Assembly (NCBI GenBank): GCA_000004985.1
Contig: GG738883.1
Length of the DNA: 64,000 bases
Reading direction: 5' to 3' (one strand)
From: Naegleria gruberi
Taxonomy: Eukaryota
Below the pieces are notes generated by a model. The model had not been told where the DNA came from. It made no database searches and saw only the letters and a program-made list of their open reading frames with translations. Shown one piece after another: positions 4,272-60,921 of this stretch (position 1 is the stretch's first letter; every line of letters begins with the position of its first letter). The position numbers and the translations under genes are program-made.

Positions 4272-4342
4272 CGACCTATGGTGCAGAGGGAGCATATTGG
4301 ACTCTGAATCCAAGGACGCAGGTTCGATTCCTGCTAGGTCGG
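4272..4342 (+). tRNA. tRNA-Gln (anticodon CTG)
   Basis: Cloverleaf folded by hand. Acceptor CGACCTA/TAGGTCG, D-arm GTGC..GCAT, anticodon stem TTGGA/TCCAA with loop CTCTGAA (anticodon CUG), and T-arm GCAGG-TTCGATT-CCTGC. T-run terminators follow at 4346-4358. Confidence 0.85.
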
Positions 4343-6500: not shown

Positions 6501-7451
6501 TCATTCATCACTACTATCGTATCTATCTTCCATTTCTTCTAGGAGATTGAGCTTGTTAACTGATGCAACTTTCACACCCAATGACTCTGCTCTTTTGAAT
6601 AATTCAAGAGCTCTTTCTAAGTCTTCAAACTCATCTCCGCACGTAAGACTGACCCCTAAATCATTAATGGCTCGTGGATGATCTTGCTGAGCTGCTTTTT
6701 CAAGCCAAAATATTTTCATTTCCTTATCTTCATAACCTGGTTCGACACGGAATAAGATTGAAAGGTTGTACTGAGCTCTGACATGTCCTTTCTTTGCAGC
6801 TTTAATAGTCCACTCAAATGCCTTTCTAACATTCTTTTCAGTTCCCTTCCCTTTGGCATAGAAACTTCCAAGTTTACATTGAGATTTCACAATTCCTTGT
6901 TGAGATGCCTTTGAGAACCACTTGAATGCTTCATTGTAATCTTTTCGAAATTCAAATTCTCTTCCAATTGAGTATTGTGATAACGAATGTCCTAGCTCAG
7001 CAGCTTTTAAATAAAGATCAAATCCTTTAGAATTCATTTTGTTAGCGTACATGATATTCCCTGCTTTTCGAAAGAATAGGGGACTGTGAGTATCTGCAAT
7101 TTCTACAAATAAATCGACTTGTTCCTGACAACTTCCTCCCTTAATACTAGGTAAAGTGAACACATTCAAGCTAGATAGGAATGACGCTTTTGGTAAAAGA
7201 TTTCTGAAAGTGTCAAAATCAATCGATTTCCCCTTCAATTCCAATATTTCCAAACTGGTAAAATTTTTGCAAGATAAAACGTGTTGTAAATCTTCTGGTG
7301 AAAGGTCATAATTATTCATGTCCAATTCCAAAACTCCCTGCATGGCACTACTATTACACATTTCCTCAATACTAAAAGACTCGGTTTTATGCACTTCAAT
7401 TCTCACCCATGGAATTGAATAGAAAACGTGATGGAAAGATTTGGCGACCAA
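6501..7451 (-). CDS. Sel1-like repeat (TPR-like) protein
   Basis: Tandem ~36-aa repeats with the Sel1 signature (..A..G...AQ..LG..Y..G.GV.KD..KA..W..KAA..G). Examples are KAAELGHSLSQYSIG, KASQQGIVKSQCKLGSFYAKGKGTEKNVRKAFEW and KAAKKGHVRAQYNL. Confidence 0.6.
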   Translation of the reverse strand: MVAKSFHHVFYSIPWVRIEVHKTESFSIEEMCNSSAMQGVLELDMNNYDLSPEDLQHVLSCKNFTSLEILELKGKSIDFDTFRNLLPKASFLSSLNVFTLPSIKGGSCQEQVDLFVEIADTHSPLFFRKAGNIMYANKMNSKGFDLYLKAAELGHSLSQYSIGREFEFRKDYNEAFKWFSKASQQGIVKSQCKLGSFYAKGKGTEKNVRKAFEWTIKAAKKGHVRAQYNLSILFRVEPGYEDKEMKIFWLEKAAQQDHPRAINDLGVSLTCGDEFEDLERALELFKRAESLGVKVASVNKLNLLEEMEDRYDSSDE

Positions 7452-25905: not shown

Positions 25906-27561
25906 TTAGATGGAACTAATTTCTGTATAGGCTCTCTTCTTTCTATTGTAAAATACTAGAGTAAGGATTATCACACCAACAATAACAAGGAGGAGAGCAG
26001 CTCCACCAATTGATGCTCCAATAATAATACCTAGATTATCTGAATTCTTACTTGGTTCTGGAGTGATATATCCTCCTAAATTGGAGGCATCATTGTCATT
26101 TACATTTGATGTCAAATAGTATGGGACAAATTCAAAATACTTGGATGGACTCAATTTAGTGGAAATGATTTCATTCATTTCAGATGTAGTCAATTTAAGA
26201 GATTTATCAACTTTCTTACCCCAATAATTCAAGCTTACATTGAGCTTTGAATTAGCTTTTTGCACACAGACATCTCCATTGACTGTTTCGACACTATCAA
26301 AAATGTTTTTTTCAATCCTCAAGTTGTTATTGATTGCATTCTTAATAGTGAGAGAACATTTACCAGAGTTTCCTGTTAAAGTGTTACGTACAAACGAAAG
26401 GGCTCCAATATTGTCAAAGTTTACAATACTATAGAATCCATTGACTTGACAATTTACAATTTCATTTTGTTCAAAAACTACTGAATCAAAATTGAATAAT
26501 GGTCCACCAATCAAATTCAAAGGTATTGATGGTAATCCAGAAGATGGGGTCAAATTAATCACCTTATTGTTAGTAAAGCGAAATAATTTCATGTTGTAAT
26601 TCATGAATACGGCAAGACCATGGATATTCTGGAATGTACATTGTTGGATATCAAAAACTCCATTAGATACATCTGGTTGATTATTGGCAATTGCTATTCC
26701 ACTCTCTTTCATATTGAAATTGTCAAATTTAACTCTGAATGCAGTAATATTATAGGAAACTATACCGGATTTGAACCATTTAAAGTCAACATTTGTCAAT
26801 TTAAGGGAAACTCTCTCAGAATTAATACCTTGCCCAACATTGTCGAAAACAGTGTTCTCAACAGTGAATGAATTCTTTGCATTCTTATTGTCAGATCCTT
26901 TGTGGACAAAGGTATTTCCTATTTTGGAGAAATAACAATTCGAAACAGTCACTCGACAAGCATTTTCTGGTAATGCAATCAAAAGGACGGTTTGCATGTT
27001 TTCAAATTTTGATTCAGTTACATGGAATACATGTTCTCCACTAATGATACGAAATAGGTTGTATCCACCATTCATTGTGCAATTACTGAGTTTAATAGAA
27101 TCCAGTGATTGTTGAATGTCAAAGGTTTGAACAGCCTTCAGTCTTTGAGACTTGATAACAGATACTGAATCCAAATCTAAGCGTCTTGTTTGGCCATCCA
27201 ACACAAACGACCACATTTCATTGTTGAAAGATGGAACTGGTTTTGTTCCTTGGAACACATCCAAACTCATGAATTGTACGTGCTTTCCAATTTCTAAACT
27301 TCCATTAATATTGATAGTGATTGGTTGTGTAACATTGGATGATGAGTAGAATACTACTTGAGCATTATCTTTAATTGATAGGATGCTATCTTGTGGAATG
27401 TTCAAGCTTTCCTTGATGAGCACAAGTCCTTTCCATTCAATAATAGATACTTCATTTCTTTTAGCACATACATGTTGAATGTTGTAACTCACAACCATTA
27501 AGATAAACAAGTAAATGGCCAACACTAAGCGTGACCATCTACTCAAAGCTAATACGTTCAT
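25906..27561 (-). CDS. Type-I membrane protein with a beta-helix (FxxN-repeat) ectodomain and a short cytoplasmic tail
   Basis: Signal peptide MNVLALSRWSRLVLAIYLFILMVVSYNIQHVCA. Repeated FxxN beta-helix units are FDNVGQG, FENMQTV, FQNIHGL, FTNNKVI, FEQNEIV and FVRNTLT. TM segment LGIIIGASIGGAALLLVIVGVIILTLVFY, then NRKKRAYTEISSI at the C-terminus. This looks like a kinase-less relative of the receptor-kinase ectodomains. Confidence 0.55.
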   Translation of the reverse strand: MNVLALSRWSRLVLAIYLFILMVVSYNIQHVCAKRNEVSIIEWKGLVLIKESLNIPQDSILSIKDNAQVVFYSSSNVTQPITININGSLEIGKHVQFMSLDVFQGTKPVPSFNNEMWSFVLDGQTRRLDLDSVSVIKSQRLKAVQTFDIQQSLDSIKLSNCTMNGGYNLFRIISGEHVFHVTESKFENMQTVLLIALPENACRVTVSNCYFSKIGNTFVHKGSDNKNAKNSFTVENTVFDNVGQGINSERVSLKLTNVDFKWFKSGIVSYNITAFRVKFDNFNMKESGIAIANNQPDVSNGVFDIQQCTFQNIHGLAVFMNYNMKLFRFTNNKVINLTPSSGLPSIPLNLIGGPLFNFDSVVFEQNEIVNCQVNGFYSIVNFDNIGALSFVRNTLTGNSGKCSLTIKNAINNNLRIEKNIFDSVETVNGDVCVQKANSKLNVSLNYWGKKVDKSLKLTTSEMNEIISTKLSPSKYFEFVPYYLTSNVNDNDASNLGGYITPEPSKNSDNLGIIIGASIGGAALLLVIVGVIILTLVFYNRKKRAYTEISSI

Positions 27562-33840: not shown

Positions 33841-36228
33841 TTAGTAGAACTGCTTGAGTGGGGATTGTTTTTGAATGAGTTGTCTTATCAGTACATTTTC
33901 AAAGAGATTAGCAAGCTCATCATTACTCTTTGCAGAAACATAACAATATGGTACATTAAGTTGTTTAGCTCTTTCTTCCAAGCTGTGGTCAGTGGAATTT
34001 CCACTTCTATTTTGTACAATAACAATTGGTATTTGTGAAATATCAACTCTCTTAACAAACAAAATTTCTTCGATGAGCTCATTGATGGCAACAATGGAAT
34101 TCTTTTGCTCTTCGGAACAAACGAGAACAAATGCATTAGAACTAAAGATTCTTTCATCTAGATATTCTTCATCATCTCCATTCATGTCCAACAAGTTCAC
34201 TTTAACAACTTGATCATAAACTTTCAATTCCTTCAAATAGAGTTCTTCCTCAGAGTTTGGATCTTGCTCAGTAATAGTTCCTTGAACATAATTGTTGAGC
34301 AATCTTGATTTTCCTACAAGCGGTGGACCTCCAACAAAAACTTCAATTTCGTCTGGCAATGCCTTTGTGACGGTAATGTCACCAGAGCCACTAACTTCAA
34401 CCTTGACAGTAGAGCTTAATTTCTTTGATTGGAAGAGAAGAGTGACATGTTGATTTCCATTGACAATATTTGTGTTGTCCAATTTAGATGTATAATCAGT
34501 AGAATCTCCCAAAATGAATGAATAGGACAAGTCATTGATATATGAGACACCTTCTTGTTTACCTGTTGTGAAGGTGAACTTGAGTAAATTCTTAAAGAAG
34601 GAAACATTCTTTTCAATCTTTGATGGAGTTGCAACTTTTGGTGAAGTCAATTCAATAAGTTTAGCATCTGATGGAGTTGCTTGGTATCCGAAACTAGTAA
34701 GAAGAGCAATAATCTTTTCCTTTAAAGATGATGGACATTCCTCACTAATAATTCTATCGATGGACTTTTCAACAAAACGTGGAGATTCTGCCTTGACAGT
34801 CAATTGATGATTGGCCTTGGCGTTTAACAATAATCTAGCCAACTTGACTTGCCCAGATTCAATAGCTCTATGAAGTGGAGTTCTTCCACTGAAATCTCTA
34901 ACATCAACATTAGCATTATGTCTCAATAACCATTCAGCAATGAGATAACTCTTCAAATCAATTGCATAGTGGAGTGGATATCTTACTTCATCCTCAATAA
35001 CACATGGATCATTGACGTAGGCAGAGAGTTCCTTTTCTTGTTCAGAGAAAATTTCAAGTGCCAAATCAGTCAAATAAACATCTCTTTCATGTGAATAGTT
35101 TTCGGAATCTGATGAGAAATCCAAACCTTCATCTTCTCCGCCTTGGTCAACTTCCAAAGATTGCAAAACAATGAGCAAGAGATTTTGTTGTTTTGGAAGC
35201 TTTGAAGCTTTCAATCTCAATCCTTCTTCTTTCAATAACTTGTAGGCTTTTCTATTGTTTTCCATCAATGCAAAGAGTAAAAGATTGGCTTTGAAATGGG
35301 ATTCTTCATCGACAAGCATTTCAATTCTAGACAATTCTTCCTTTACAAAATGATCCTTCTTATTGATATGAATCAATTCTCCCAACAAGGAAGCATCTTC
35401 ATGTAAAATTGAGATGAAAAGTAACTTTTTAAAGCATTCTTCAGTAGGTCTATTAGTGGACAACAAGTCAAGAAGTAAATCTTGCTTATTTTCTCTGGCA
35501 TATTGTTTCAATTGATTTTCAACATCAACATTTTGAACAATTTTTGTTGTTTCAATTGGTTTTTGTTTCTTCATCAATTCTTTCAATAAGTAAATATTGA
35601 AAATGTCATTCACTTGATTGAAATCCCTAGCATTACAAGAAACGAAAGGCAATTTATATTGTAAAGCTTTCTTTTCAACAAGAGAGTGAACTGATCTTGC
35701 CTTTTGCATATCTTCTTCATCAAGAATATCCAAATACTTTTCTTGTGATTCTAAAATATCACTCTTATTGAGAATGATAACAATTGGTGTTTGATCAACA
35801 TTACCAATTGATTGTTGATTATCAAGATTTGTTGATGATCTATTGTTAATTTGATTGACAATTTCATCAATCATTGATTGACATTGTTCAGGATCATCAA
35901 GAACACTACAAACAATCAAGAAAGCATTTCCATCAGCAATAAATTGATGTTGCAATTGTTTAAATTCACTTCTACCTCCACATTCATTAATATTTAATGT
36001 AATACTATCATTATCAAAATAAATAGTTTTGTAGTAGTGTTCAGTTACTGTAGGAACATATTCTTCTGTAAATTGTTTGGAAATGTATTGATGAATAATT
36101 GATGACTTGCCACTTGCTTCACTTCCCAATACAACAAGTTCTAAATAATCTGATGGAAAGACAGGTGAAAATTTAGTACTTGTACGTGTTGTAGTGTTGG
36201 TTGTAGGTAAATGTAGACTATCTTCCAT
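33841..36228 (-). CDS. Tandem Ras-like GTPase / ankyrin-repeat / Ras-like GTPase protein
   Basis: The N-terminal domain has G1 GSEASGKSS and G4 NKSD. The central part has ankyrin repeats (YPLHYAIDLKSYLIAEWLLRHNANVDVRDFSGRTPLHRAIESGQVKLARLLL). The C-terminal second P-loop domain has GGPPLVGKS and DMNG. Single 795-aa ORF. Confidence 0.65.
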   Translation of the reverse strand: MEDSLHLPTTNTTTRTSTKFSPVFPSDYLELVVLGSEASGKSSIIHQYISKQFTEEYVPTVTEHYYKTIYFDNDSITLNINECGGRSEFKQLQHQFIADGNAFLIVCSVLDDPEQCQSMIDEIVNQINNRSSTNLDNQQSIGNVDQTPIVIILNKSDILESQEKYLDILDEEDMQKARSVHSLVEKKALQYKLPFVSCNARDFNQVNDIFNIYLLKELMKKQKPIETTKIVQNVDVENQLKQYARENKQDLLLDLLSTNRPTEECFKKLLFISILHEDASLLGELIHINKKDHFVKEELSRIEMLVDEESHFKANLLLFALMENNRKAYKLLKEEGLRLKASKLPKQQNLLLIVLQSLEVDQGGEDEGLDFSSDSENYSHERDVYLTDLALEIFSEQEKELSAYVNDPCVIEDEVRYPLHYAIDLKSYLIAEWLLRHNANVDVRDFSGRTPLHRAIESGQVKLARLLLNAKANHQLTVKAESPRFVEKSIDRIISEECPSSLKEKIIALLTSFGYQATPSDAKLIELTSPKVATPSKIEKNVSFFKNLLKFTFTTGKQEGVSYINDLSYSFILGDSTDYTSKLDNTNIVNGNQHVTLLFQSKKLSSTVKVEVSGSGDITVTKALPDEIEVFVGGPPLVGKSRLLNNYVQGTITEQDPNSEEELYLKELKVYDQVVKVNLLDMNGDDEEYLDERIFSSNAFVLVCSEEQKNSIVAINELIEEILFVKRVDISQIPIVIVQNRSGNSTDHSLEERAKQLNVPYCYVSAKSNDELANLFENVLIRQLIQKQSPLKQFY

Positions 36229-38832: not shown

Positions 38833-39527
38833 ATGTCGTTAGTGAGTGGTGATTATAGACCATGGGATTATGATATCCTTGTTAAAGTATTGATTATTGG
38901 TGATTCTGGAGTCGGGAAGAGTTGCTTACTTGTTCGTTATAGTGATGATGATTTCTTTGAATCACATCTTACAACTATTGGAGTTGATTTTAAAATTAAA
39001 ACACAAACATTACCAGATAATAGAGTAGCAAAGATACAGTTGTGGGATACTGCTGGTCAGGTAAGTTTTTATTTCTAATATTTTCTAATAATTTCAAATA
39101 GGAACGATTCAATTCTATTGTGTCTGGATATTATAGAAGTTCAAATGGTATTATGATTGTATTCGATTTGACTGATGAACAATCTTTTAGAAATGTCAGT
39201 AAATGGCTTGATCAAATTAAGAAACATGGTGATCCTTCGGGTCCAATGGTTCTTGTTGGAAATAAGGCTGATTTAACATCAAAGAGAGTTATTGATTCTC
39301 AATTAGGAAAGGAATTAGCCAAGAATTTAGGAATTGAATATATTGAAACGAGTGCAAAGAGTTCACAAGGTGTTGAACAAGCTTTTGACAAAATGTTACA
39401 AGCAGTTGTAAAGGCTCAAAACTATATTGAAAGTGGACCAAAGAAGGACGATAGATATTCGAATTCTTCATCTTCCCTGGTGGTGCAAGGACCAAAAACT
39501 CCTTCTGGTAGTACTTGTAATTGTTGA
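38833..39527 (+). CDS. Rab-family small GTPase; 2 exons
   Basis: Exon 1 is 38833-39060 (...WDTAGQ|GTAAGT). The intron is 39061-39101 (41 nt, ..AAATAG). Exon 2 is 39102-39527 ([12 protein letters not shown]...). Motifs are G1 GDSGVGKS, the RabF region, NKADL, ETSAK and a C-terminal CNC prenylation motif. The track's 'M' at 39120 is a GTG alternative start inside exon 2. Confidence 0.85.
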
Positions 39528-40161: not shown

Positions 40162-40671
40162 ATGTGGCTGGAAGATCTAGTGTACGATATAATTTATGAT
40201 GTAATGGAAGAGCGGAAGAAAGAAAATTCACTCCAAGGCAATGTTTATATTTGGGATATTGTAAAACAAGTTCAAGAGATTATTCTTGAAAAAGGTGAAG
40301 AAACTTATTGGATGGTGGGAAATCCAATTGTTGAAGAAGAAATTTATGAGGAAATTAAACGAGAATTGAAAGAATTAAAAAAACAAGCTCGAGAGGATGA
40401 GGAAGAAGTGGAAATTGAACGAGATTTTAAAATTATGAATAATATAGATGAATATGATGATGATTATGATGATGAAGAAGAATTTGAAGGAGATGAAGAT
40501 TATGATGATGAGGAAATGAATGAGGATTTTGATGATGAAGAATATGAACCAGAAATGGAGGGAGAAGAAGTCAATTCACAAAAAAGAAATAGAGAAGAGT
40601 ATGGAGATTGGGCAGATTTTGGTAAACCAGCAAAGAGTAAAAAGTTCAATATAATATATATAAAGGAATGA
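40162..40671 (+). CDS. Highly acidic D/E/Y-rich protein (169 aa)
   Basis: A-run Kozak context. Contains DEYDDDYDDEEEFEGDEDYDDEEMNEDFDDEEYEPEMEGEE. No domain recognised. Confidence 0.4.
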   Translation: MWLEDLVYDIIYDVMEERKKENSLQGNVYIWDIVKQVQEIILEKGEETYWMVGNPIVEEEIYEEIKRELKELKKQAREDEEEVEIERDFKIMNNIDEYDDDYDDEEEFEGDEDYDDEEMNEDFDDEEYEPEMEGEEVNSQKRNREEYGDWADFGKPAKSKKFNIIYIKE

Positions 40672-40881: not shown

Positions 40882-40968
40882 TCCGATGAGACGGAATCGA
40901 ACCGCCGACCACAGGATTACAGTGTTTCTTGCTACAGTCCCATGCTCTACCAGCTGAGCTATCATCGG
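40882..40968 (-). tRNA. tRNA-Tyr (anticodon GTA) with a 14-nt intron
   Basis: The reverse complement folds as CCGATGA..GCTCAGCTGGTAGAGC..TGGGA-CTGTAG[CAAGAAACACTGTA]A-TCCTG..GGCGG-TTCGATT-CCGTC..TCATCGGA. The intron sits 3' of position 37, as is canonical for tRNA-Tyr. Confidence 0.85.
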
Positions 40969-41107
40969 TACATGTTTTTAAATAAAGGATGAAATATTTT
41001 ATTGTAACTCTAAAATAAATTATTGGAGAACACAATGTCCTTCAAATGGATTGTAGATGATGATTGCTTAGCTTTGTTGTAAATAAGGCGATGATTGTAT
41101 TAAGTGA

Positions 41108-41180
41108 GCCCGTCTAGCTCAGTCGGTAGAGCGCAAGGCTCTTAACCTTGTGGTCGTGGGTTCGACCCCCACGGTGGGCG
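41108..41180 (+). tRNA. tRNA-Lys (anticodon CTT)
   Basis: GCCCGTC-TA-GCTC-AGTCGGTA-GAGC-G-CAAGG-CTCTTAA-CCTTG-TGGTC-GTGGG-TTCGACC-CCCAC-GGTGGGC-G. This is a canonical cloverleaf. Confidence 0.9.
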
Positions 41181-41370
41181 ATTTCTCTTTTATGTTAATA
41201 AGCATTTTTTAATTTTCTCTGACTTATCAAATTGTCTTAACTTTACCAAATATTCCAATAAATTCAATTTACTGAGCTTTATGTTCTTATAAGCATCTAC
41301 TATTTTGATTATTTCAACAATAATTAAATATTAAATTAAATTATATTAATTAAAAAATATTTGAATTTAA

Positions 41371-41676
41371 AAAACATTAGTCTGACTCCCAGATTTCACT
41401 CTCTGTTAGCTCATGCTCAGTTCTGCAATCTGACCATCATACAGTGTGAAGGCTATGATTTGCTCAGTTATCCTGCCTCAACCGGTTCACCTTTCATTAG
41501 GACCCTAGTTTCTCCTTTTTCATGGGGAGGTACTATGGTCACACCGCTATTGGCGCAGACAGAACATCGTCACCATATTGCTAACAGAGGAATGAGTCTG
41601 AAGAACCATCCCTTTGCCTGACGCTGTGGCAGAGAACCATCACAGCTACCTCCCTACAGTAGCCCAGCTTGTCTTT
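41371..41676 (-). ncRNA. 7SL: Signal recognition particle RNA (7SL/SRP RNA)
   Basis: The minus strand reads ...GCUGGGCUACUGUAGGGAGGUAGCUGUGAUGGUUCUCUGCCACAG... with Alu-domain helices 3 and 4. It continues ...CAAUAUGGUGAC..., a 12-nt identity to human 7SL. Then comes ...GGUGAACCGGUUGAGGCAGGAUAACUGAGCA..., which in human is GGUGAACCGGCCCAGGUCGGAAACGGAGCAGG in S-domain helix 8. A T6 terminator follows; on the + strand it is the A-run at 41369-41374. The ends are good to about ±10 nt. ORFs 41361-41621(+) and 41581-41835(-) overlap it and are spurious. Confidence 0.75.
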
Positions 41677-41789
41677 ATCATCAATTCTCGAGTGTGTAAA
41701 GGTAAAAATCTTGGAAAATATTAAATAAATGTGGTTTTCAAAAATATGATCAAAAAGATGGATCAGTGGCTTAATGAGGATAGTTACTA

Positions 41790-42435
41790 TTATTGATCCT
41801 TGTTCTTGTCTTGGTGAGGTTCTTCTTCCTTCCAACCCTTTTCAAAGGTGTTGGTATCGACACGATCTCGTGTAAGTTCTAATTGTAATTCTTCATCATG
41901 ATTCAAATTCTTTAAATTCCAACTGAAGGTGGTTCGTTGCTGGTGAGATAATTCACTACTGTGAATACCAGTCTTGGAGTAGTACTTGCTACTCAACTTT
42001 CCACTGTTCCATTTCTATATGAAATTTAAATTCCTCTTCCGAAATCGAAAAACTAACCTTGATAAACTTTTTAAAGTAATGTTGTATTTCCTCTGTATTT
42101 TCCAAATCATCTTCAATTCTCAACTTTTTATTATTTAAAAGCCACAATCTAAATTCCTGATTTTTCCTATAATAATCATTCATTGTTAATTTTTCAATTG
42201 GTGATGAAGTTGTTATTGTAGATGATGAAGAAACATCTTCTCTTTTCTGTATCTTCTTATTCAACTTTTCCAATTTCTTTTCCAATTTCCTCTTCTTTTT
42301 ATCCTCTTCATGGTCGGAATTTTCTGATGATTTATCTTCCTCATCTTTATACTTTCTCTTCTCGGCTGTCTTTTCCTTCTTTCCCATTTTTTCTTCTTTA
42401 CATTCTTGATGATTAATCCTTTTGAAAAACATCAT
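41790..42435 (-). CDS. K/E/S-rich charged (probably nuclear) protein; probably 2 exons
   Basis: ORF 41989-42435 (basic/acidic, KKEKTAEKRKYKDEEDKSSENSDHEEDKKKRKLEKKLEKL) and ORF 41790-41996 can be joined through a candidate intron of about 72 nt (GTTAGT...CAAG). Boundaries are uncertain. Confidence 0.35.
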
Positions 42436-42572
42436 CTAATCACCAATTGTCATTCAGTAGGCCTAAAATCCACTAATAGTAGGAGATACATACGAGAGAG
42501 CTACAACTTTTTCCAACCGTCCATGTGCCTGATGAATATCAATCATCATGTAATAATCACATACCTTCTTAA

Positions 42573-47388: not shown

Positions 47389-48411
47389 ATGAAATTTGTC
47401 AAGATGAAAAAAATACAACAAACAAAGAGGAAGAGAGAAGATATTGTTCTCGATTTATCCAATGTTTCTCCCAATGGTAAATGGTGGACCGCTCCGAACA
47501 TTGTTCATCTCGTATTAAAATATTTACCAGTTAAAGATATGATCCAGGGCAAGACATTGTGTAAGAATTGGTTCAAGGTGATGAATCATCAATTTGTGAG
47601 AGAGTATGTGGCTAGTTTCTTGGAGTTGGATGAAGACAACTTGCAAGATCTTGAAGTCATGATGAATACCTTCAAAACAGAGAAGAAAATGGTTTCCTCT
47701 TATGAGGCTATCATTGAACAATTGAAAGAATTAGATAATAGTAATGATTATTCTGAGAGTGTAAGATCACTATTGAGTAAATATGAAAAATCTCACAGTT
47801 TAGACCTTTTGAAAGAAATCTCAAAATTGACAAAGAAAGAAATCAGAAATCAGAACTCGTTGTCGTTGGAACCACCAAAAATTGTTATTGCTGAAAATGA
47901 GTACAATTGTCAAAACTATGGCAGCATTCGGTCTATTCTATTGTCACAAGATTTGAATTCTATTGAGCAATATGGTCTCAATGTCACAACTATTGAAAAG
48001 AGTTACTTTATTGTGTTAAGTAATGGTTATCCTATGAAGCTTAATTTTGATTATAAATGTGGAAGATATGATGGTCATTACAAAGTTGAAGTTAATGGAA
48101 CTAAAGCTATCAGGTTGAAATGGTTTGAGGGTGGATTTGAGGAGAATCATAACTGGGAATTTATCAAATTACTGAAAAAGGGGTTGGATTTCAAGTCAGA
48201 TACACCAATTGAAGAGGATACGGTATTTCTAACAATACTTTTTGCTTGGTTAATACAGCTTTTCCCAGAGGCAACAAATTATGAAATACCAGACTCATGT
48301 TTTGGAGAATCAATTCTTGTCTATTCAGATTTGGGTGAGGATAATAGGCTGTTTGCTGATGATAATTCAGAAAATGAGGAAGGCAGTAACAAGTACGATT
48401 CAGATGAGTAA
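47389..48411 (+). CDS. F-box-like protein (340 aa)
   Basis: N-terminal F-box-like helix bundle (LVLKYLPVKDMIQGKTLCKNWFKVMNHQFVREYV) and an acidic C-terminus. Confidence 0.45.
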   Translation: MKFVKMKKIQQTKRKREDIVLDLSNVSPNGKWWTAPNIVHLVLKYLPVKDMIQGKTLCKNWFKVMNHQFVREYVASFLELDEDNLQDLEVMMNTFKTEKKMVSSYEAIIEQLKELDNSNDYSESVRSLLSKYEKSHSLDLLKEISKLTKKEIRNQNSLSLEPPKIVIAENEYNCQNYGSIRSILLSQDLNSIEQYGLNVTTIEKSYFIVLSNGYPMKLNFDYKCGRYDGHYKVEVNGTKAIRLKWFEGGFEENHNWEFIKLLKKGLDFKSDTPIEEDTVFLTILFAWLIQLFPEATNYEIPDSCFGESILVYSDLGEDNRLFADDNSENEEGSNKYDSDE

Positions 48412-55225: not shown

Positions 55226-56977
55226 TTACTTTTTCTTCTCTAAAATTTCATCAGTATCAAAAACAAAAGACAATAAAGGAGATCCAACATTTGTCTGATT
55301 AGTGCTCTGAGCAACAATTGTAGAAACACTAAGGTTTGGAATTGCTGGAGCTGTCAAGCTACGATTGCTTCTATTTACAGGTTTCTTGTCTGGTGTTTTT
55401 GGATTACTGGTTGGTTGTTTCCTCTTTTTAATCCAATCTATTAGAGAATTCAAAAATGGTTTTACCAACCAAGTTCTTAGGCCTTGTTTATCCTTGTGTC
55501 TTGGATAACAGGTTTCATACAAATGATCAATAGAGAACCATTTGATTTTCAAAATTTCCTTTCTTGTTCTTGTTGCGAATTGTGTTGATTCAGGTATTCC
55601 ACCTACAATAAAAAGCTTAGTGTATGGATTTGAGTGTTTGTACTTGTCCTTATAATCAGGAACAGAACTCTCATAATTTTGATCAATTTCGATAAAGTCT
55701 TGTTCATTCACTCTATCTCCCAATTCGTATCCACATTCTTCGTAGACTTCACGTGCTGCACACGTAGTTTCCTTTTCATTTTGGTTAATTTTTCCTTTTG
55801 GGAAGGACCATGACTTAGTATTATAACCTTGAACAAGTAGAACCTTATCAAGATTTTCATTCAATATGATACAACCATAAACTGGTACAGAAGTCTTGTA
55901 ATCAAGAAATCTTTGAACTAGAGAATCAACATCTGCTTGAGATGAATCATTTTGAGTCAACTCCTCCAATATTGGACATCTAGCATACATCTTTTCACAG
56001 AACATGGAGAATTTGTACTTGGGTAAAGATTTGTGTTTAACTCTATGGAAATCGTAATAAAACCAAAAAGCTTCTTCCAATTGGAAGAATAACGTCTCAA
56101 ATACACGAGAGTCAATACCCTCCATTTGTTCCTCCTCTAATGTTGGACAGTTCAGAATAAATCTTATACATAAATCATCCAACACTTCATCAAGTAGCTC
56201 ATTTTCTTCCTCATTATCATCAAACTTGAGTGAAATTTTGGATGGTGCACTGCTACTATAATTATCTTCAACAAGTTGCTTCTTTTTACGTTGAGGAGGT
56301 GGTGTCATTATTTTCACAAATTTTGATGGTGATAAATTATTATTATTACTGCTGCCATTGATCAAGGTTGATTTTGAAACTTCAAATGTGTCATTAAGAG
56401 AGTTCGGAATGGATTTACTCTGCACCACTTGATTTGACACATTCAACAATTGTTTGTTTGACTTGTTAGAAGAAGTATTAACAGTAAGTGCTTGTTTAGG
56501 AGTGAATTGTGGAGTATTTTGGAATGACTTTGCTCGTAACCTAGTGTTATTATTATTATCATCAATGATTGGTGAATTATTATTAAATTGTTGTTGTTGT
56601 TGTTGTGATTGATCAATTTCTCGGGAAAGAGTCTGATCGTTAATTTTCTTAAAAGATCCTACTGATGATGCTGATTGATTATTCCTATTCTTTCGTGAGT
56701 TATTGTTTTTAAGAAATGATGATGATGATGAAGAATTGATAGTAATCGGTTGAGAATGTTGTTGTTGACTTGAAGAGTTTGATGAGTGGTTATTGTTGAT
56801 TGGAGTGGAGAGACTCTGACTCTTCTTGTGATAACTATTGTTGGTGTTCGATTGTTTATTGATGTCATTTCCATTGCTATTATTGCCATTATTAAAACCG
56901 TTATTATTATTGTTGTTGTATGGTATTTTCTGTCTTGCTGATGGAATTAAAATTTGATGATCGGTGGAGGAGGACAT
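55226..56977 (-). CDS. dcp2: mRNA-decapping enzyme Dcp2 (Nudix hydrolase) with long N/Q/S-rich tracts
   Basis: Box A resemblance at LDDLCIRFILNCPTLEEEQMEGIDSRVFETLFFQLEEAFWFYYDF. Nudix fold with Nudix box GKINQNEKETTCAAREVYEECGYEL (GX5EX7REVXEEXG). Box B resemblance at ...KLFIVGGIPE... Poly-N and poly-Q runs are present. Confidence 0.75.
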   Translation of the reverse strand: MSSSTDHQILIPSARQKIPYNNNNNNGFNNGNNSNGNDINKQSNTNNSYHKKSQSLSTPINNNHSSNSSSQQQHSQPITINSSSSSSFLKNNNSRKNRNNQSASSVGSFKKINDQTLSREIDQSQQQQQQFNNNSPIIDDNNNNTRLRAKSFQNTPQFTPKQALTVNTSSNKSNKQLLNVSNQVVQSKSIPNSLNDTFEVSKSTLINGSSNNNNLSPSKFVKIMTPPPQRKKKQLVEDNYSSSAPSKISLKFDDNEEENELLDEVLDDLCIRFILNCPTLEEEQMEGIDSRVFETLFFQLEEAFWFYYDFHRVKHKSLPKYKFSMFCEKMYARCPILEELTQNDSSQADVDSLVQRFLDYKTSVPVYGCIILNENLDKVLLVQGYNTKSWSFPKGKINQNEKETTCAAREVYEECGYELGDRVNEQDFIEIDQNYESSVPDYKDKYKHSNPYTKLFIVGGIPESTQFATRTRKEILKIKWFSIDHLYETCYPRHKDKQGLRTWLVKPFLNSLIDWIKKRKQPTSNPKTPDKKPVNRSNRSLTAPAIPNLSVSTIVAQSTNQTNVGSPLLSFVFDTDEILEKKK

Positions 56978-57189
56978 TTTTTTGGATCCGAAAAGACAAA
57001 TAAAGAAAAGACTTGATTAGACTTTACAATTTGATTTTGATTGAGAAAGTAAGCCATAAATAATATGTTTGCATGGGTTGTTTCCTCTAGTTTATCAATT
57101 CCAATAAACTGGGTTTTTGGCTTTAGTTTTGTTGTAGCACAAACTGGAATCTCATGTCAATTCAATCAATTATTTCAATTTGAAAAAAA

Positions 57190-60523: not shown

Positions 60524-60921
60524 TTTTCTGTGTTTGATGTTACAAAAAAAGGAGCGAGCCTGTGTACCATCTCCTATTCAGTTTACTACACAACGGATTG
60601 TGAATTGCAATGATAATCTAAATGGACATGTTGCATCTAATGGAGAAAGGAATGGAATAATGAAATCCATTCTTATAATCAAAATATTACAGGTACCAGA
60701 AATTTATGCTTAACTCACCTCAATTTCGTAAAGATCTTAAAACTCCTGGCGTGTGCTTTCGGTACGACCGAGGTCTTGGATTCGATTCCCAACAAGGAAG
60801 GCATCTTTTTGGTTTGGGTCCAAGTAAAAGAATTTATTCTTCAATTATTGAATAATAATTCCCAATACAATCTATCTCAGGTATCATTCATTCCGGAATA
60901 ACACCTTTTATGTTTTAAAAA

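What the first reader, a model, noticed from the sequence alone, without database searches (positions are those of the whole stretch)
40882..41676. Pol III gene cluster of intron-containing tRNA-Tyr, tRNA-Lys and an SRP (7SL) RNA
Within about 800 bp there are a tRNA-Tyr(GTA) with a 14-nt intron (minus strand), a tRNA-Lys(CTT) (plus strand) and a roughly 300-nt SRP RNA (minus strand). The SRP RNA shows the Alu-domain hairpins (GGGCUACUGUAGGGAGGUAGC / CUGUGAUGGUUCUCUGCCACAG). It has a 12-nt identity to human 7SL (CAAUAUGGUGAC) and the S-domain helix-8 core GGUGAACCGG...CAGG...GAGCA. It ends in a T6 terminator. The ORF track shows only two overlapping spurious ORFs at this place. Clustering of an SRP RNA with tRNAs may reflect shared pol III promoter or chromatin context, or tRNA-linked dispersal.
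Basis: partly seen in the sequence, partly recalled or inferred. Interest (0 to 1): 0.6.

Follow-up and report, generated by a model that had tools for sequence, protein, structure and literature searches.

The report
Naegleria SRP RNA gene beside two tRNAs
This stretch of the Naegleria gruberi genome holds an ordinary signal-recognition-particle RNA gene next to a tRNA-Tyr and a tRNA-Lys gene; all three are real, but I found nothing to show that their closeness matters.

Summary
Rfam covariance models at gathering threshold find a full-length SRP (7SL) RNA at 41370-41667 (-) (94.3 bits, E=1.4e-22). They also find a tRNA-Lys(CTT) at 41108-41180 (+) and an intron-containing tRNA at 40882-40968 (-). 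With the intron at the canonical 37/38 site, plus C1-G72 and A73, that tRNA is tRNA-Tyr(GUA). ARAGORN's tRNA-Asn call comes from choosing a different splice position.

The window is Naegleria gruberi (Heterolobosea), not a dictyostelid. The SRP RNA has a standard Alu domain and S domain and ends in a T6 terminator. The "12-nt identity to human 7SL" does not lie at the homologous position.

The clustering is not conserved where I could look. Orthologs of both flanking protein genes in N. lovaniensis, two other Naegleria-like assemblies and Willaertia have no SRP RNA or tRNA beside them. No tRNA, tRNA-like element or B box lies upstream of the SRP gene, so the trypanosomatid tRNA-driven 7SL promoter arrangement is absent.

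Most likely these are three independent pol III genes brought together by tRNA-gene turnover or rearrangement. Cytoplasmic 7SL genes in heterolobosean nuclear genomes have already been reported. Ordinary and already known; low interest.

The parts
40882..40968 (-). tRNA-Tyr(GUA) gene, 87 nt as precursor and 73 nt mature. It has the C1-G72 pair, discriminator A73, and an exact B box GGTTCGATTCC at 40893-40903.
   Evidence: Rfam tRNA 54.8 bits, E=4.6e-9. ARAGORN -i finds the same gene but calls it Asn(gtt) with the intron at 35/36. Listing all splice registers plus the identity elements gives Tyr. B box.
40918..40931 (-). 14-nt tRNA intron (CAAGAAACACUGUA) at the canonical 37/38 position. Its 3' part, CUGUA, pairs with the anticodon region in the predicted pre-tRNA fold.
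   Evidence: register table and RNAfold of the precursor; sequence.
41108..41180 (+). tRNA-Lys(CUU) gene, head-to-head with tRNA-Tyr (139-bp spacer). It has an exact B box GGTTCGACCCC and a T4 then a T6 run in the roughly 30 nt downstream of its 3' end.
   Evidence: ARAGORN; Rfam 66.4 bits; B box; 3' flank.
41370..41667 (-). SRP (7SL) RNA gene, full length, tail-to-tail with tRNA-Lys (189-bp AT-rich spacer).
   Evidence: Rfam Metazoa_SRP 94.3 bits, E=1.4e-22, model 1-299/299. The MFE fold reproduces helices 5, 6 and 8.
41624..41667 (-). Alu-domain 5' part: helix 2 (CUG/CAG), helix 3 hairpin (GGCUAC...GUAGCU), the UGUGAU (UGUNR) motif and the helix 4 hairpin (UGG...CCA).
   Evidence: cmscan alignment to the consensus structure.
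41449..41494 (-). S-domain helix 8: AAGGU-GAACC-GGUU-GAGG-CAG-GAUAA-CUG-AGCA-AAUC-AUA-GCCUU. The conserved AGG and AGCA loops are present. The apical loop has a 1-nt insertion relative to the GNAR tetraloop.
   Evidence: cmscan alignment and MFE fold.
41369..41374 (-). T6 pol III terminator of the SRP RNA gene. A second T6 lies about 20 nt further downstream.
   Evidence: Sequence.
41668..41789 (-). 122-bp spacer between the stop codon of the upstream protein gene and the SRP RNA 5' end. This is the presumed promoter region. It contains CCACA at -67, TTTAAT at -58, and, on the opposite strand, A-box-like motifs at about -92 to -110. None of these has been tested.
41790..42435 (-). Context: a two-exon, 200-aa protein gene (orthologs carry Pfam SCI1_hairpin) immediately upstream of the SRP RNA gene. 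In three other Naegleria-type genomes its 3' neighbour is DCP2, not an SRP RNA.

Best explanation
Three separate RNA polymerase III transcription units sit within 800 bp in the nuclear genome of Naegleria gruberi.

- **SRP RNA:** a canonical eukaryotic SRP RNA. Its Alu domain has helices 2, 3 and 4 and a UGUNR motif, which is the SRP9/14-type elongation-arrest module. Its S domain has helices 6 and 8, which is the SRP19/SRP54 binding platform.
- **tRNA-Tyr(GUA):** its 14-nt intron at 37/38 is removed by the nuclear tRNA splicing endonuclease.
- **tRNA-Lys(CUU):** a standard intron-less tRNA.

Each gene has its own T-run terminator. The tRNAs carry exact internal B boxes. The SRP RNA is presumably driven by elements in its own 5' end and/or the 122-bp upstream spacer.

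The juxtaposition is best explained as a lineage-specific, probably neutral product of fast tRNA-gene turnover and local rearrangement, not as a functional unit.

Shown here: gene identities, boundaries, terminators, B boxes, absence of an upstream tRNA, and absence of the cluster at orthologous neighbours. Inferred: pol III transcription, independent promoters, and neutrality of the clustering.
For: - Covariance-model hits above the curated thresholds for all three genes, with ARAGORN agreeing on position.
- Tyr identity follows from the canonical intron register, C1-G72 and A73. C1-G72/A73 as the TyrRS identity set is established knowledge.
- Exact B boxes occur only inside the three tRNAs of the window.
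- T4-T6 runs lie within a few nucleotides of every 3' end.
- The organism is N. gruberi, by 100% identity to an NCBI protein.
- Orthologs of the upstream neighbour (SCI1_hairpin gene) in N. lovaniensis and two Logan assemblies abut DCP2 with no SRP or tRNA.
- Orthologs of the Rab gene and of the ras/ankyrin gene in N. lovaniensis, an ENA Naegleria and Willaertia also lack SRP and tRNA genes within 10 kb.
- Microsynteny around these genes is poor in general.
- tDNA positions are known to turn over about as fast as unconstrained sequence, and N. gruberi has 924 tDNAs (PMC2888827).
- No direct repeats or target-site duplications flank the genes.
Against: - For two independent tDNAs it is about 0.03%. 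The adjacency is therefore somewhat unlikely under uniform placement, although tDNAs cluster among themselves.
- In the sister lineage (trypanosomatids), 7SL genes sit in tDNA clusters for a functional reason (PMC4950102, PMC12204681).
- I could not obtain the SRP RNA locus of any other heterolobosean. Conservation of SRP-tRNA linkage elsewhere in those genomes therefore remains untested.
- No expression data were available.
Confidence: 0.8

Rival explanations
1. Functional coupling. The neighbouring tRNA genes, or a degenerate tRNA-like element upstream, recruit TFIIIC/TFIIIB and so promote or insulate SRP RNA transcription. This would be a heterolobosean counterpart of the trypanosomatid system, where box A and box B of a divergent upstream tRNA drive 7SL and snRNA genes.
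For: - Trypanosomatids and Naegleria both belong to Discoba.
- 7SL genes lie in tDNA loci in T. cruzi and T. brucei, and the upstream tRNA acts as an extragenic promoter with box A about 104 bp upstream (PMC4950102, PMC12204681, PMC3273796).
- In the window, two overlapping A-box-like 11-mers with 1 mismatch each lie on the divergent strand at about -92 to -110 from the SRP start.
- The chance of tDNAs this close is roughly 2% or less.
Against: - The real tRNAs lie downstream of the SRP gene. tRNA-Lys is convergent with it, and tRNA-Tyr is on the same strand about 400 bp beyond the terminator.
- No tRNA or tRNA-like fold is found upstream, even with ARAGORN at 90% thresholds; only junk with long introns appears at 80% or below.
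- No B box within 1 mismatch occurs anywhere in 41200-42500 outside tRNA-Lys.
- The A-box pattern is common in the window: 37 hits against 27 expected.
- The candidate upstream region is the 3' UTR and last exon of a protein gene.
- The linkage is absent at the orthologous neighbours in four other genomes.
Confidence: 0.1
2. The SRP RNA copy is a non-functional duplicate or retro-pseudogene (an SRP-derived SINE-like insertion) that landed near tRNA genes, and the functional gene lies elsewhere.
For: tRNA genes are frequent targets for retroelement integration (general knowledge, also noted in PMC2888827). The copy number of SRP RNA genes in N. gruberi was not determined here.
Against: - The match is full length (model 1-299) with all the conserved motifs: UGUNR, helix-8 AGG/AGCA, and the long helix 5.
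- The gene ends in a T6 terminator, not an A-rich tail.
- No flanking target-site duplications were found.
- A 99%-identical environmental isolate shares the upstream flank to within 21 bp of the gene.
Confidence: 0.05
3. The minus-strand tRNA is tRNA-Asn(GUU) with a non-canonical intron between positions 35 and 36, as ARAGORN reports.
For: ARAGORN -i output. The duplicated CUGUA on both sides of the insert makes several 14-nt excisions formally possible.
Against: - Nuclear tRNA introns are removed at 37/38 by a ruler mechanism (established knowledge). That register gives GUA with G37 and A38.
- C1-G72 and A73 are the eukaryotic and archaeal tRNA-Tyr identity elements.
- The mature sequence is 59/73 identical to human tRNA-Tyr-GTA as I recalled it from memory.
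- Eukaryotic tRNA-Tyr genes almost always carry an intron.
Confidence: 0.03

Closest known systems
Canonical eukaryotic SRP (7SL) RNA, Rfam RF00017 Metazoa_SRP (clan CL00003)
   Same: Full-length match with the same architecture: Alu domain with helices 2, 3 and 4 and the UGUNR motif, long helix 5, helices 6 and 8 with the AGG and AGCA loops, about 300 nt, and an oligo-U 3' end.
   Different: The helix-8 apical loop is GAUAA, a 1-nt insertion relative to GNAR. The helix-6 apex is a loop of about 10 nt instead of a tetraloop, and cmscan flags non-canonical pairs there. Helix 5 is divergent in primary sequence. The host is a heterolobosean protist, not a metazoan.
Trypanosomatid 7SL RNA loci (T. 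brucei, Leptomonas, T. cruzi) with companion tRNA genes
   Same: An SRP RNA gene embedded among tRNA genes in a member of Discoba, and pol III transcription.
   Different: In trypanosomatids a divergent tRNA sits upstream with box A about 104 bp from the start and is essential for expression. Their Alu-like domain is replaced by a separate tRNA-like RNA (PMC4950102, PMC3273796). Here the tRNAs are downstream, nothing tRNA-like or B-box-like is upstream, and the Alu domain is canonical.
Eukaryotic nuclear tRNA-Tyr(GUA) genes with a 37/38 intron (for example human and yeast tRNA-Tyr)
   Same: C1-G72, A73, G37, a short intron directly after position 37 that pairs with the anticodon region, and 59/73 identity of the mature sequence to human tRNA-Tyr as recalled from memory.
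   Different: Only the intron sequence differs. Its 3' CUGUA duplicates the anticodon-loop CUGUA, and this misleads ARAGORN into calling Asn.
Heterogeneous tDNA clusters in eukaryotic genomes (Bermudez-Santana et al. 2010, PMC2888827)
   Same: Two different tRNA genes less than 1 kb apart in head-to-head orientation. Poor syntenic conservation. N. gruberi is tDNA-rich (924 loci).
   Different: This cluster also contains a non-tRNA pol III gene.

Membership tests
Eukaryotic SRP RNA (Rfam RF00017 / clan CL00003) | Covariance-model score at or above the curated gathering score over the full model | tested here: met
   94.3 bits against 70, E=1.4e-22, model 1-299/299. Other clan members also matched but scored lower.
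Eukaryotic SRP RNA (Rfam RF00017 / clan CL00003) | Alu domain with helices 2, 3 and 4 and the UGUNR motif | tested here: met
   CUG/CAG helix 2, GGCUAC/GUAGCU helix 3, UGUGAU motif, UGG/CCA helix 4, aligned with high posterior probability.
Eukaryotic SRP RNA (Rfam RF00017 / clan CL00003) | Helix 8 with 5' AGG and 3' AGCA internal-loop motifs and a GNAR tetraloop (SRP54 M-domain site) | tested here: inconclusive
   AGG and AGCA are present. The apical loop is GAUAA, with one inserted U relative to GNAR (alignment, fold). No homolog was available to show whether this is conserved.
Eukaryotic SRP RNA (Rfam RF00017 / clan CL00003) | Base-pair covariation across related sequences | not testable with these tools
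   No other heterolobosean SRP RNA could be retrieved. Synteny anchors and two metagenome pattern scans all failed.
Eukaryotic SRP RNA (Rfam RF00017 / clan CL00003) | Expressed as a roughly 300-nt RNA bound to SRP proteins | not testable with these tools
   No expression or binding data were accessible.
Nuclear tRNA-Tyr(GUA) | Cloverleaf above the tRNA model threshold with anticodon GUA once the intron is removed at 37/38 | tested here: met
   54.8 bits against 29. Register table: 37/38 gives loop CUGUAGA and anticodon GUA. ARAGORN's alternative register (35/36, Asn) is non-canonical.
Nuclear tRNA-Tyr(GUA) | C1-G72 base pair and discriminator A73 (eukaryotic/archaeal TyrRS identity set) | tested here: met
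   N1=C, N72=G, N73=A.
tRNA-Lys(CUU) | Cloverleaf, anticodon CUU, internal A and B boxes | tested here: met
   66.4 bits; ARAGORN Lys(ctt); exact B box GGTTCGACCCC.
Trypanosomatid-type tRNA-dependent 7SL promoter | Divergently oriented tRNA or tRNA-like element upstream, with box A about 104 bp from the start | tested here: not met
   No tRNA upstream by Rfam or by ARAGORN at 90% thresholds or above. Only A-box-like 11-mers with 1 mismatch at about -92 to -110, a pattern found 37 times in the window against 27 expected.
Trypanosomatid-type tRNA-dependent 7SL promoter | Box B upstream of the small-RNA gene | tested here: not met
   No GGTTCGANNCC within 1 mismatch in the upstream region.
Trypanosomatid-type SRP (7SL plus separate tRNA-like RNA replacing the Alu domain) | 7SL RNA lacking the canonical Alu-domain hairpins | tested here: not met
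   Helices 3 and 4 and the UGUNR motif are present.

The most novel reading that the evidence does not exclude
The association of the SRP RNA gene with tRNA genes could be an ancestral Discoba trait. On this reading, Naegleria would represent an intermediate state in which TFIIIC sites of neighbouring tRNA genes (or the A-box-like motif at about -100) help load TFIIIB on a 7SL gene that still has a canonical Alu domain. That would foreshadow the obligatory tRNA-dependent 7SL and snRNA promoters of trypanosomatids.
Probability: 0.05. Interest if true: 0.55.

Novelty: already known. Interest (0 to 1): 0.15.

Why it matters
As it stands, this is routine non-coding-RNA annotation of a sequenced protist genome. 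The SRP RNA and both tRNAs are found by standard Rfam models. Cytoplasmic 7SL genes in heterolobosean nuclear genomes have already been reported as a search control (Pyrih et al. 2021, PMC8321541).

It would matter only if SRP-tRNA linkage proved to be systematic across Heterolobosea. That would bear on how the unusual tRNA-dependent pol III promoters of trypanosomatids arose. A minor practical point: intron-aware ARAGORN mislabels this tRNA-Tyr as tRNA-Asn.

Tried and rejected
1. **Exact-protein look-up of the 795-aa ORF**: not on record. One search also used the wrong minus-strand trimming. The database model is 865 aa.
2. **Synteny anchors to reach SRP loci in other species.** I tried the ras/ankyrin gene (L001-L003), the SCI1_hairpin gene (L004-L006) and the Rab gene (L007-L008). 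None has an SRP RNA within 10 kb, and only one unrelated tRNA-Gln(TTG) turned up, in L005.
3. **Metagenome pattern scans with the helix-8 core.** The strict pattern gave 0 hits. The relaxed pattern gave 43 loci. Most are GC-rich, and none of the 16 AT-rich or mid-GC loci is an SRP RNA. An nhmmer run of the SRP RNA against all 43 printed no hits, but I did not check whether it ran properly. The 27 GC-rich loci were not scanned with Rfam; I assume they are bacterial chance hits.
4. **ENA contigs from a 99%-identical N. gruberi-like isolate.** One stops 21 bp before the SRP gene and the other stops right after Rab, so neither is informative.
5. **Trypanosomatid-type upstream tRNA promoter:** rejected.
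6. **Retro-pseudogene or mobile-element origin:** no target-site duplications or repeats.
7. **tRNA-Asn reading from ARAGORN:** rejected on the canonical intron position and identity elements.
8. **Dictyostelid origin:** rejected.
9. **Literature on helix-8 pentaloops:** no hits. The Nakaar 1994 paper is not held in the library.

Full report
**Observation.** The sequence at 40882-41676 was read directly and scanned with ARAGORN and with all Rfam families at their gathering thresholds. Rfam reports three genes in the interval:
- Metazoa_SRP (RF00017) at 41370-41667 on the minus strand: 94.3 bits against a gathering score of 70, E=1.4e-22, matched end to end (model 1-299).
- A tRNA at 41108-41180 (+): 66.4 bits. 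ARAGORN calls it Lys, anticodon CTT.
- A tRNA at 40882-40968 (-): 54.8 bits, with a 17-nt insertion relative to the model in the anticodon loop.

A permissive E-value scan of the whole window added nothing else in the interval.

**The tRNA with the insert.** In intron mode ARAGORN finds the same gene but labels it tRNA-Asn(GTT), with a 14-nt intron between positions 35 and 36. The anticodon-loop region reads CUGUAGCAAGAAACACUGUAA. CUGUA occurs on both sides, so several 14-nt excisions leave a plausible 7-nt loop.
- The canonical nuclear position, after nucleotide 37, gives loop CUGUAGA. That means anticodon GUA, G37, A38 and intron CAAGAAACACUGUA (window 40918-40931).
- The gene has C1-G72 and discriminator A73. 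These are the eukaryotic and archaeal tRNA-Tyr identity elements (established knowledge).
- The mature sequence is 59/73 identical to human tRNA-Tyr-GTA as I recalled it from memory.
- In the predicted precursor fold, the intron's CUGUA pairs with the anticodon region, as is usual for pre-tRNA-Tyr.

The Asn label comes from ARAGORN's choice of splice position.

**The SRP RNA.** The cmscan alignment shows the following:
- Helix 2 (CUG/CAG).
- The helix 3 hairpin (GGCUAC/GUAGCU).
- The UGUGAU version of the UGUNR motif.
- The helix 4 hairpin.
- A long helix 5, including a perfect CUCUGUUAGC/GCUAACAGAG segment.
- Helix 6.
- Helix 8, with the conserved AGG and AGCA loops.

The gene ends ...AAUG followed by T6 (41369-41374), and a second T6 lies about 20 nt on. 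The thermodynamic fold alone is only modestly better than shuffles (z=-1.99), but it reproduces helices 5, 6 and 8.

Two small departures from the consensus are visible. The helix-8 apical loop is GAUAA, one inserted U relative to GNAR. The helix-6 apex is a loop of about 10 nt, with flagged non-canonical pairs.

The consensus stretch resembling the human copy is at about 128-140, where Naegleria has ACCAUAGUACCU. The identity is therefore not positional homology.

**Organism.** The 795-aa ORF at 33841-36228 (-) is 100% identical to an NCBI protein of Naegleria gruberi. Orthologs at 60% identity occur in N. lovaniensis and at 35% in Willaertia magna. Two ENA metagenome contigs are 99% identical to the window.

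**Surroundings and gene order.** The order and strands across the cluster are:
- Rab GTPase (+, 38833-39527, one intron).
- An acidic 169-aa ORF (+, 40162-40671).
- tRNA-Tyr (-).
- A 139-bp spacer.
- tRNA-Lys (+).
- A 189-bp AT-rich spacer.
- SRP RNA (-).
- A 122-bp spacer.
- A two-exon, 200-aa gene (-, 41790-42435) whose orthologs carry Pfam SCI1_hairpin.

So the two tRNAs are head-to-head, and tRNA-Lys and the SRP RNA are tail-to-tail. Each gene is followed by its own T-run. Exact B boxes (GGTTCGANNCC) occur in the window only inside the three tRNA genes.

**Is the cluster conserved?** I used both flanking genes and the ras/ankyrin gene as anchors.
- In N. lovaniensis (L004) and two Logan assemblies (L005, L006), the SCI1_hairpin ortholog is followed, tail-to-tail and within a few to a few hundred bp, by DCP2. 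No SRP RNA is there. In N. gruberi, DCP2 lies 13 kb away at 55229-57016.
- The Rab orthologs of N. lovaniensis and Willaertia (L007, L008) have no SRP or tRNA within 10 kb.
- The same is true of the ras/ankyrin orthologs (L001-L003).
- Only Rab itself is shared between the window and L007/L008, so microsynteny is poor in general at this evolutionary distance.

I could not retrieve any other heterolobosean SRP RNA. As a result, covariation and SRP-tRNA linkage elsewhere in those genomes remain untested.

**Is the proximity functional?** The natural comparison is the sister lineage.
- In trypanosomatids, 7SL and snRNA genes need box A and box B of a divergent upstream tRNA or tRNA-like element, with box A about 104 bp upstream (PMC4950102).
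- Their 7SL genes lie inside tDNA loci (PMC12204681).
- Their Alu domain is replaced by a separate tRNA-like RNA (PMC3273796).

None of the defining features holds here:
- The tRNAs are downstream of the SRP gene.
- Neither Rfam nor ARAGORN at 90% thresholds finds anything tRNA-like upstream.
- There is no upstream B box.
- The Alu domain is canonical.

Two overlapping A-box-like 11-mers with one mismatch each lie on the divergent strand at about -92 to -110. That pattern occurs 37 times in the window against 27 expected, and the motifs sit in the 3' UTR of the protein gene, so I treat them as probable chance. A CCACA at -67 followed by an AT-rich TTTAAT at -58 recalls, from memory, upstream elements of plant and Dictyostelium small-RNA genes. 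It cannot be evaluated without other Naegleria small-RNA promoters.

**Chance.** N. gruberi has 924 tDNAs (PMC2888827). With a genome of about 41 Mb (from memory), the chance of at least one tDNA within 500 bp of a given point is about 2%, and for two independent tDNAs about 0.03%. tDNAs do cluster among themselves, though, and this is a single locus. The same paper reports that tDNA positions turn over about as fast as unconstrained sequence and are associated with rearrangements. That fits the lineage-specific position seen here.

**Conclusion.** These are three ordinary, independently terminated pol III genes in N. gruberi. The SRP RNA is a canonical eukaryotic 7SL RNA. Cytoplasmic 7SL genes in the nuclear genomes of heteroloboseans have already been detected with Rfam models (PMC8321541). 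The clustering is mildly unlikely by chance, but no structural or comparative evidence for coupling was found. The finding is correct, already known in kind, and of low interest. A genome-wide survey of SRP-tDNA distances across Heterolobosea would settle the residual hypothesis.

Noticed in passing
window 40882-40968 (-): ARAGORN in intron mode labels this tRNA-Tyr as tRNA-Asn(GTT) with a 35/36 intron. The cause is that CUGUA is duplicated on both sides of the 14-nt intron. This could trip up automatic annotation of Naegleria tRNA-Tyr genes.
   Followed up: yes
window 41467-41477 (-), SRP RNA nt 191-201: The helix-8 apical loop is GAUAA, a 1-nt insertion relative to the near-universal GNAR tetraloop. 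The helix-6 apex (about SRP nt 143-152) is a loop of about 10 nt instead of a tetraloop. No homolog was available to show whether either feature is conserved.
   Followed up: partly
window 41725-41777: Upstream of the SRP RNA start there is CCACA at -67 and TTTAAT at -58 on the gene strand. On the opposite strand there are two overlapping A-box-like 11-mers (TGGATCAGTGG and TGGCTTAATGA) at about -92 to -110. These could be promoter elements or chance.
   Followed up: partly
window 41790-42435 versus 55229-57016; L004, L005, L006: The SCI1_hairpin gene and DCP2 are tail-to-tail neighbours in N. lovaniensis and two other Naegleria-like assemblies, but are 13 kb apart in N. gruberi. The pol III cluster sits exactly at the former junction.
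   Followed up: partly
L005 1470-1542 (-): In a Naegleria-like Logan assembly (SRR15442443), a tRNA-Gln(TTG) lies just upstream of the SCI1_hairpin ortholog. So a different tRNA gene sits on the other side of the same protein gene, which is consistent with rapid tDNA turnover.
   Followed up: no
window 4272-4342 (+): A third tRNA gene in the window, tRNA-Gln(CTG), 66.2 bits, with an exact B box and a T5 terminator.
   Followed up: partly
window 33841-36228 (-): A large protein with two Ras/Roc-type GTPase domains flanking ankyrin repeats. It is conserved in Naegleria and Willaertia. The NCBI model is 865 aa against the 795-aa single ORF, so the annotated gene probably has an additional upstream exon.
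   Followed up: no
L052 (ENA ERZ929261 contig k127_330696) = window 43725-41688: An environmental metagenome contains a 99%-identical N. gruberi-like strain. Its contig ends 21 bp before the SRP RNA gene, which may be an assembly break at the pol III cluster.
   Followed up: no
window 47628-47683 (+): A weak Rfam hit to the archaeal C/D-box sR39 (21.6 bits against gathering 50, E=0.41). Probably chance.
   Followed up: no
window 26767-26777 (-), 6739-6749 (+), 60779-60789 (+): Isolated B-box-like 11-mers (for example GGTTCAAATCC) with no detectable tRNA around them. They could be tDNA relics or chance. The pattern with up to 1 mismatch gave 8 hits against 3.2 expected, and 4 of the 8 lie inside the three real tRNAs.
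   Followed up: no
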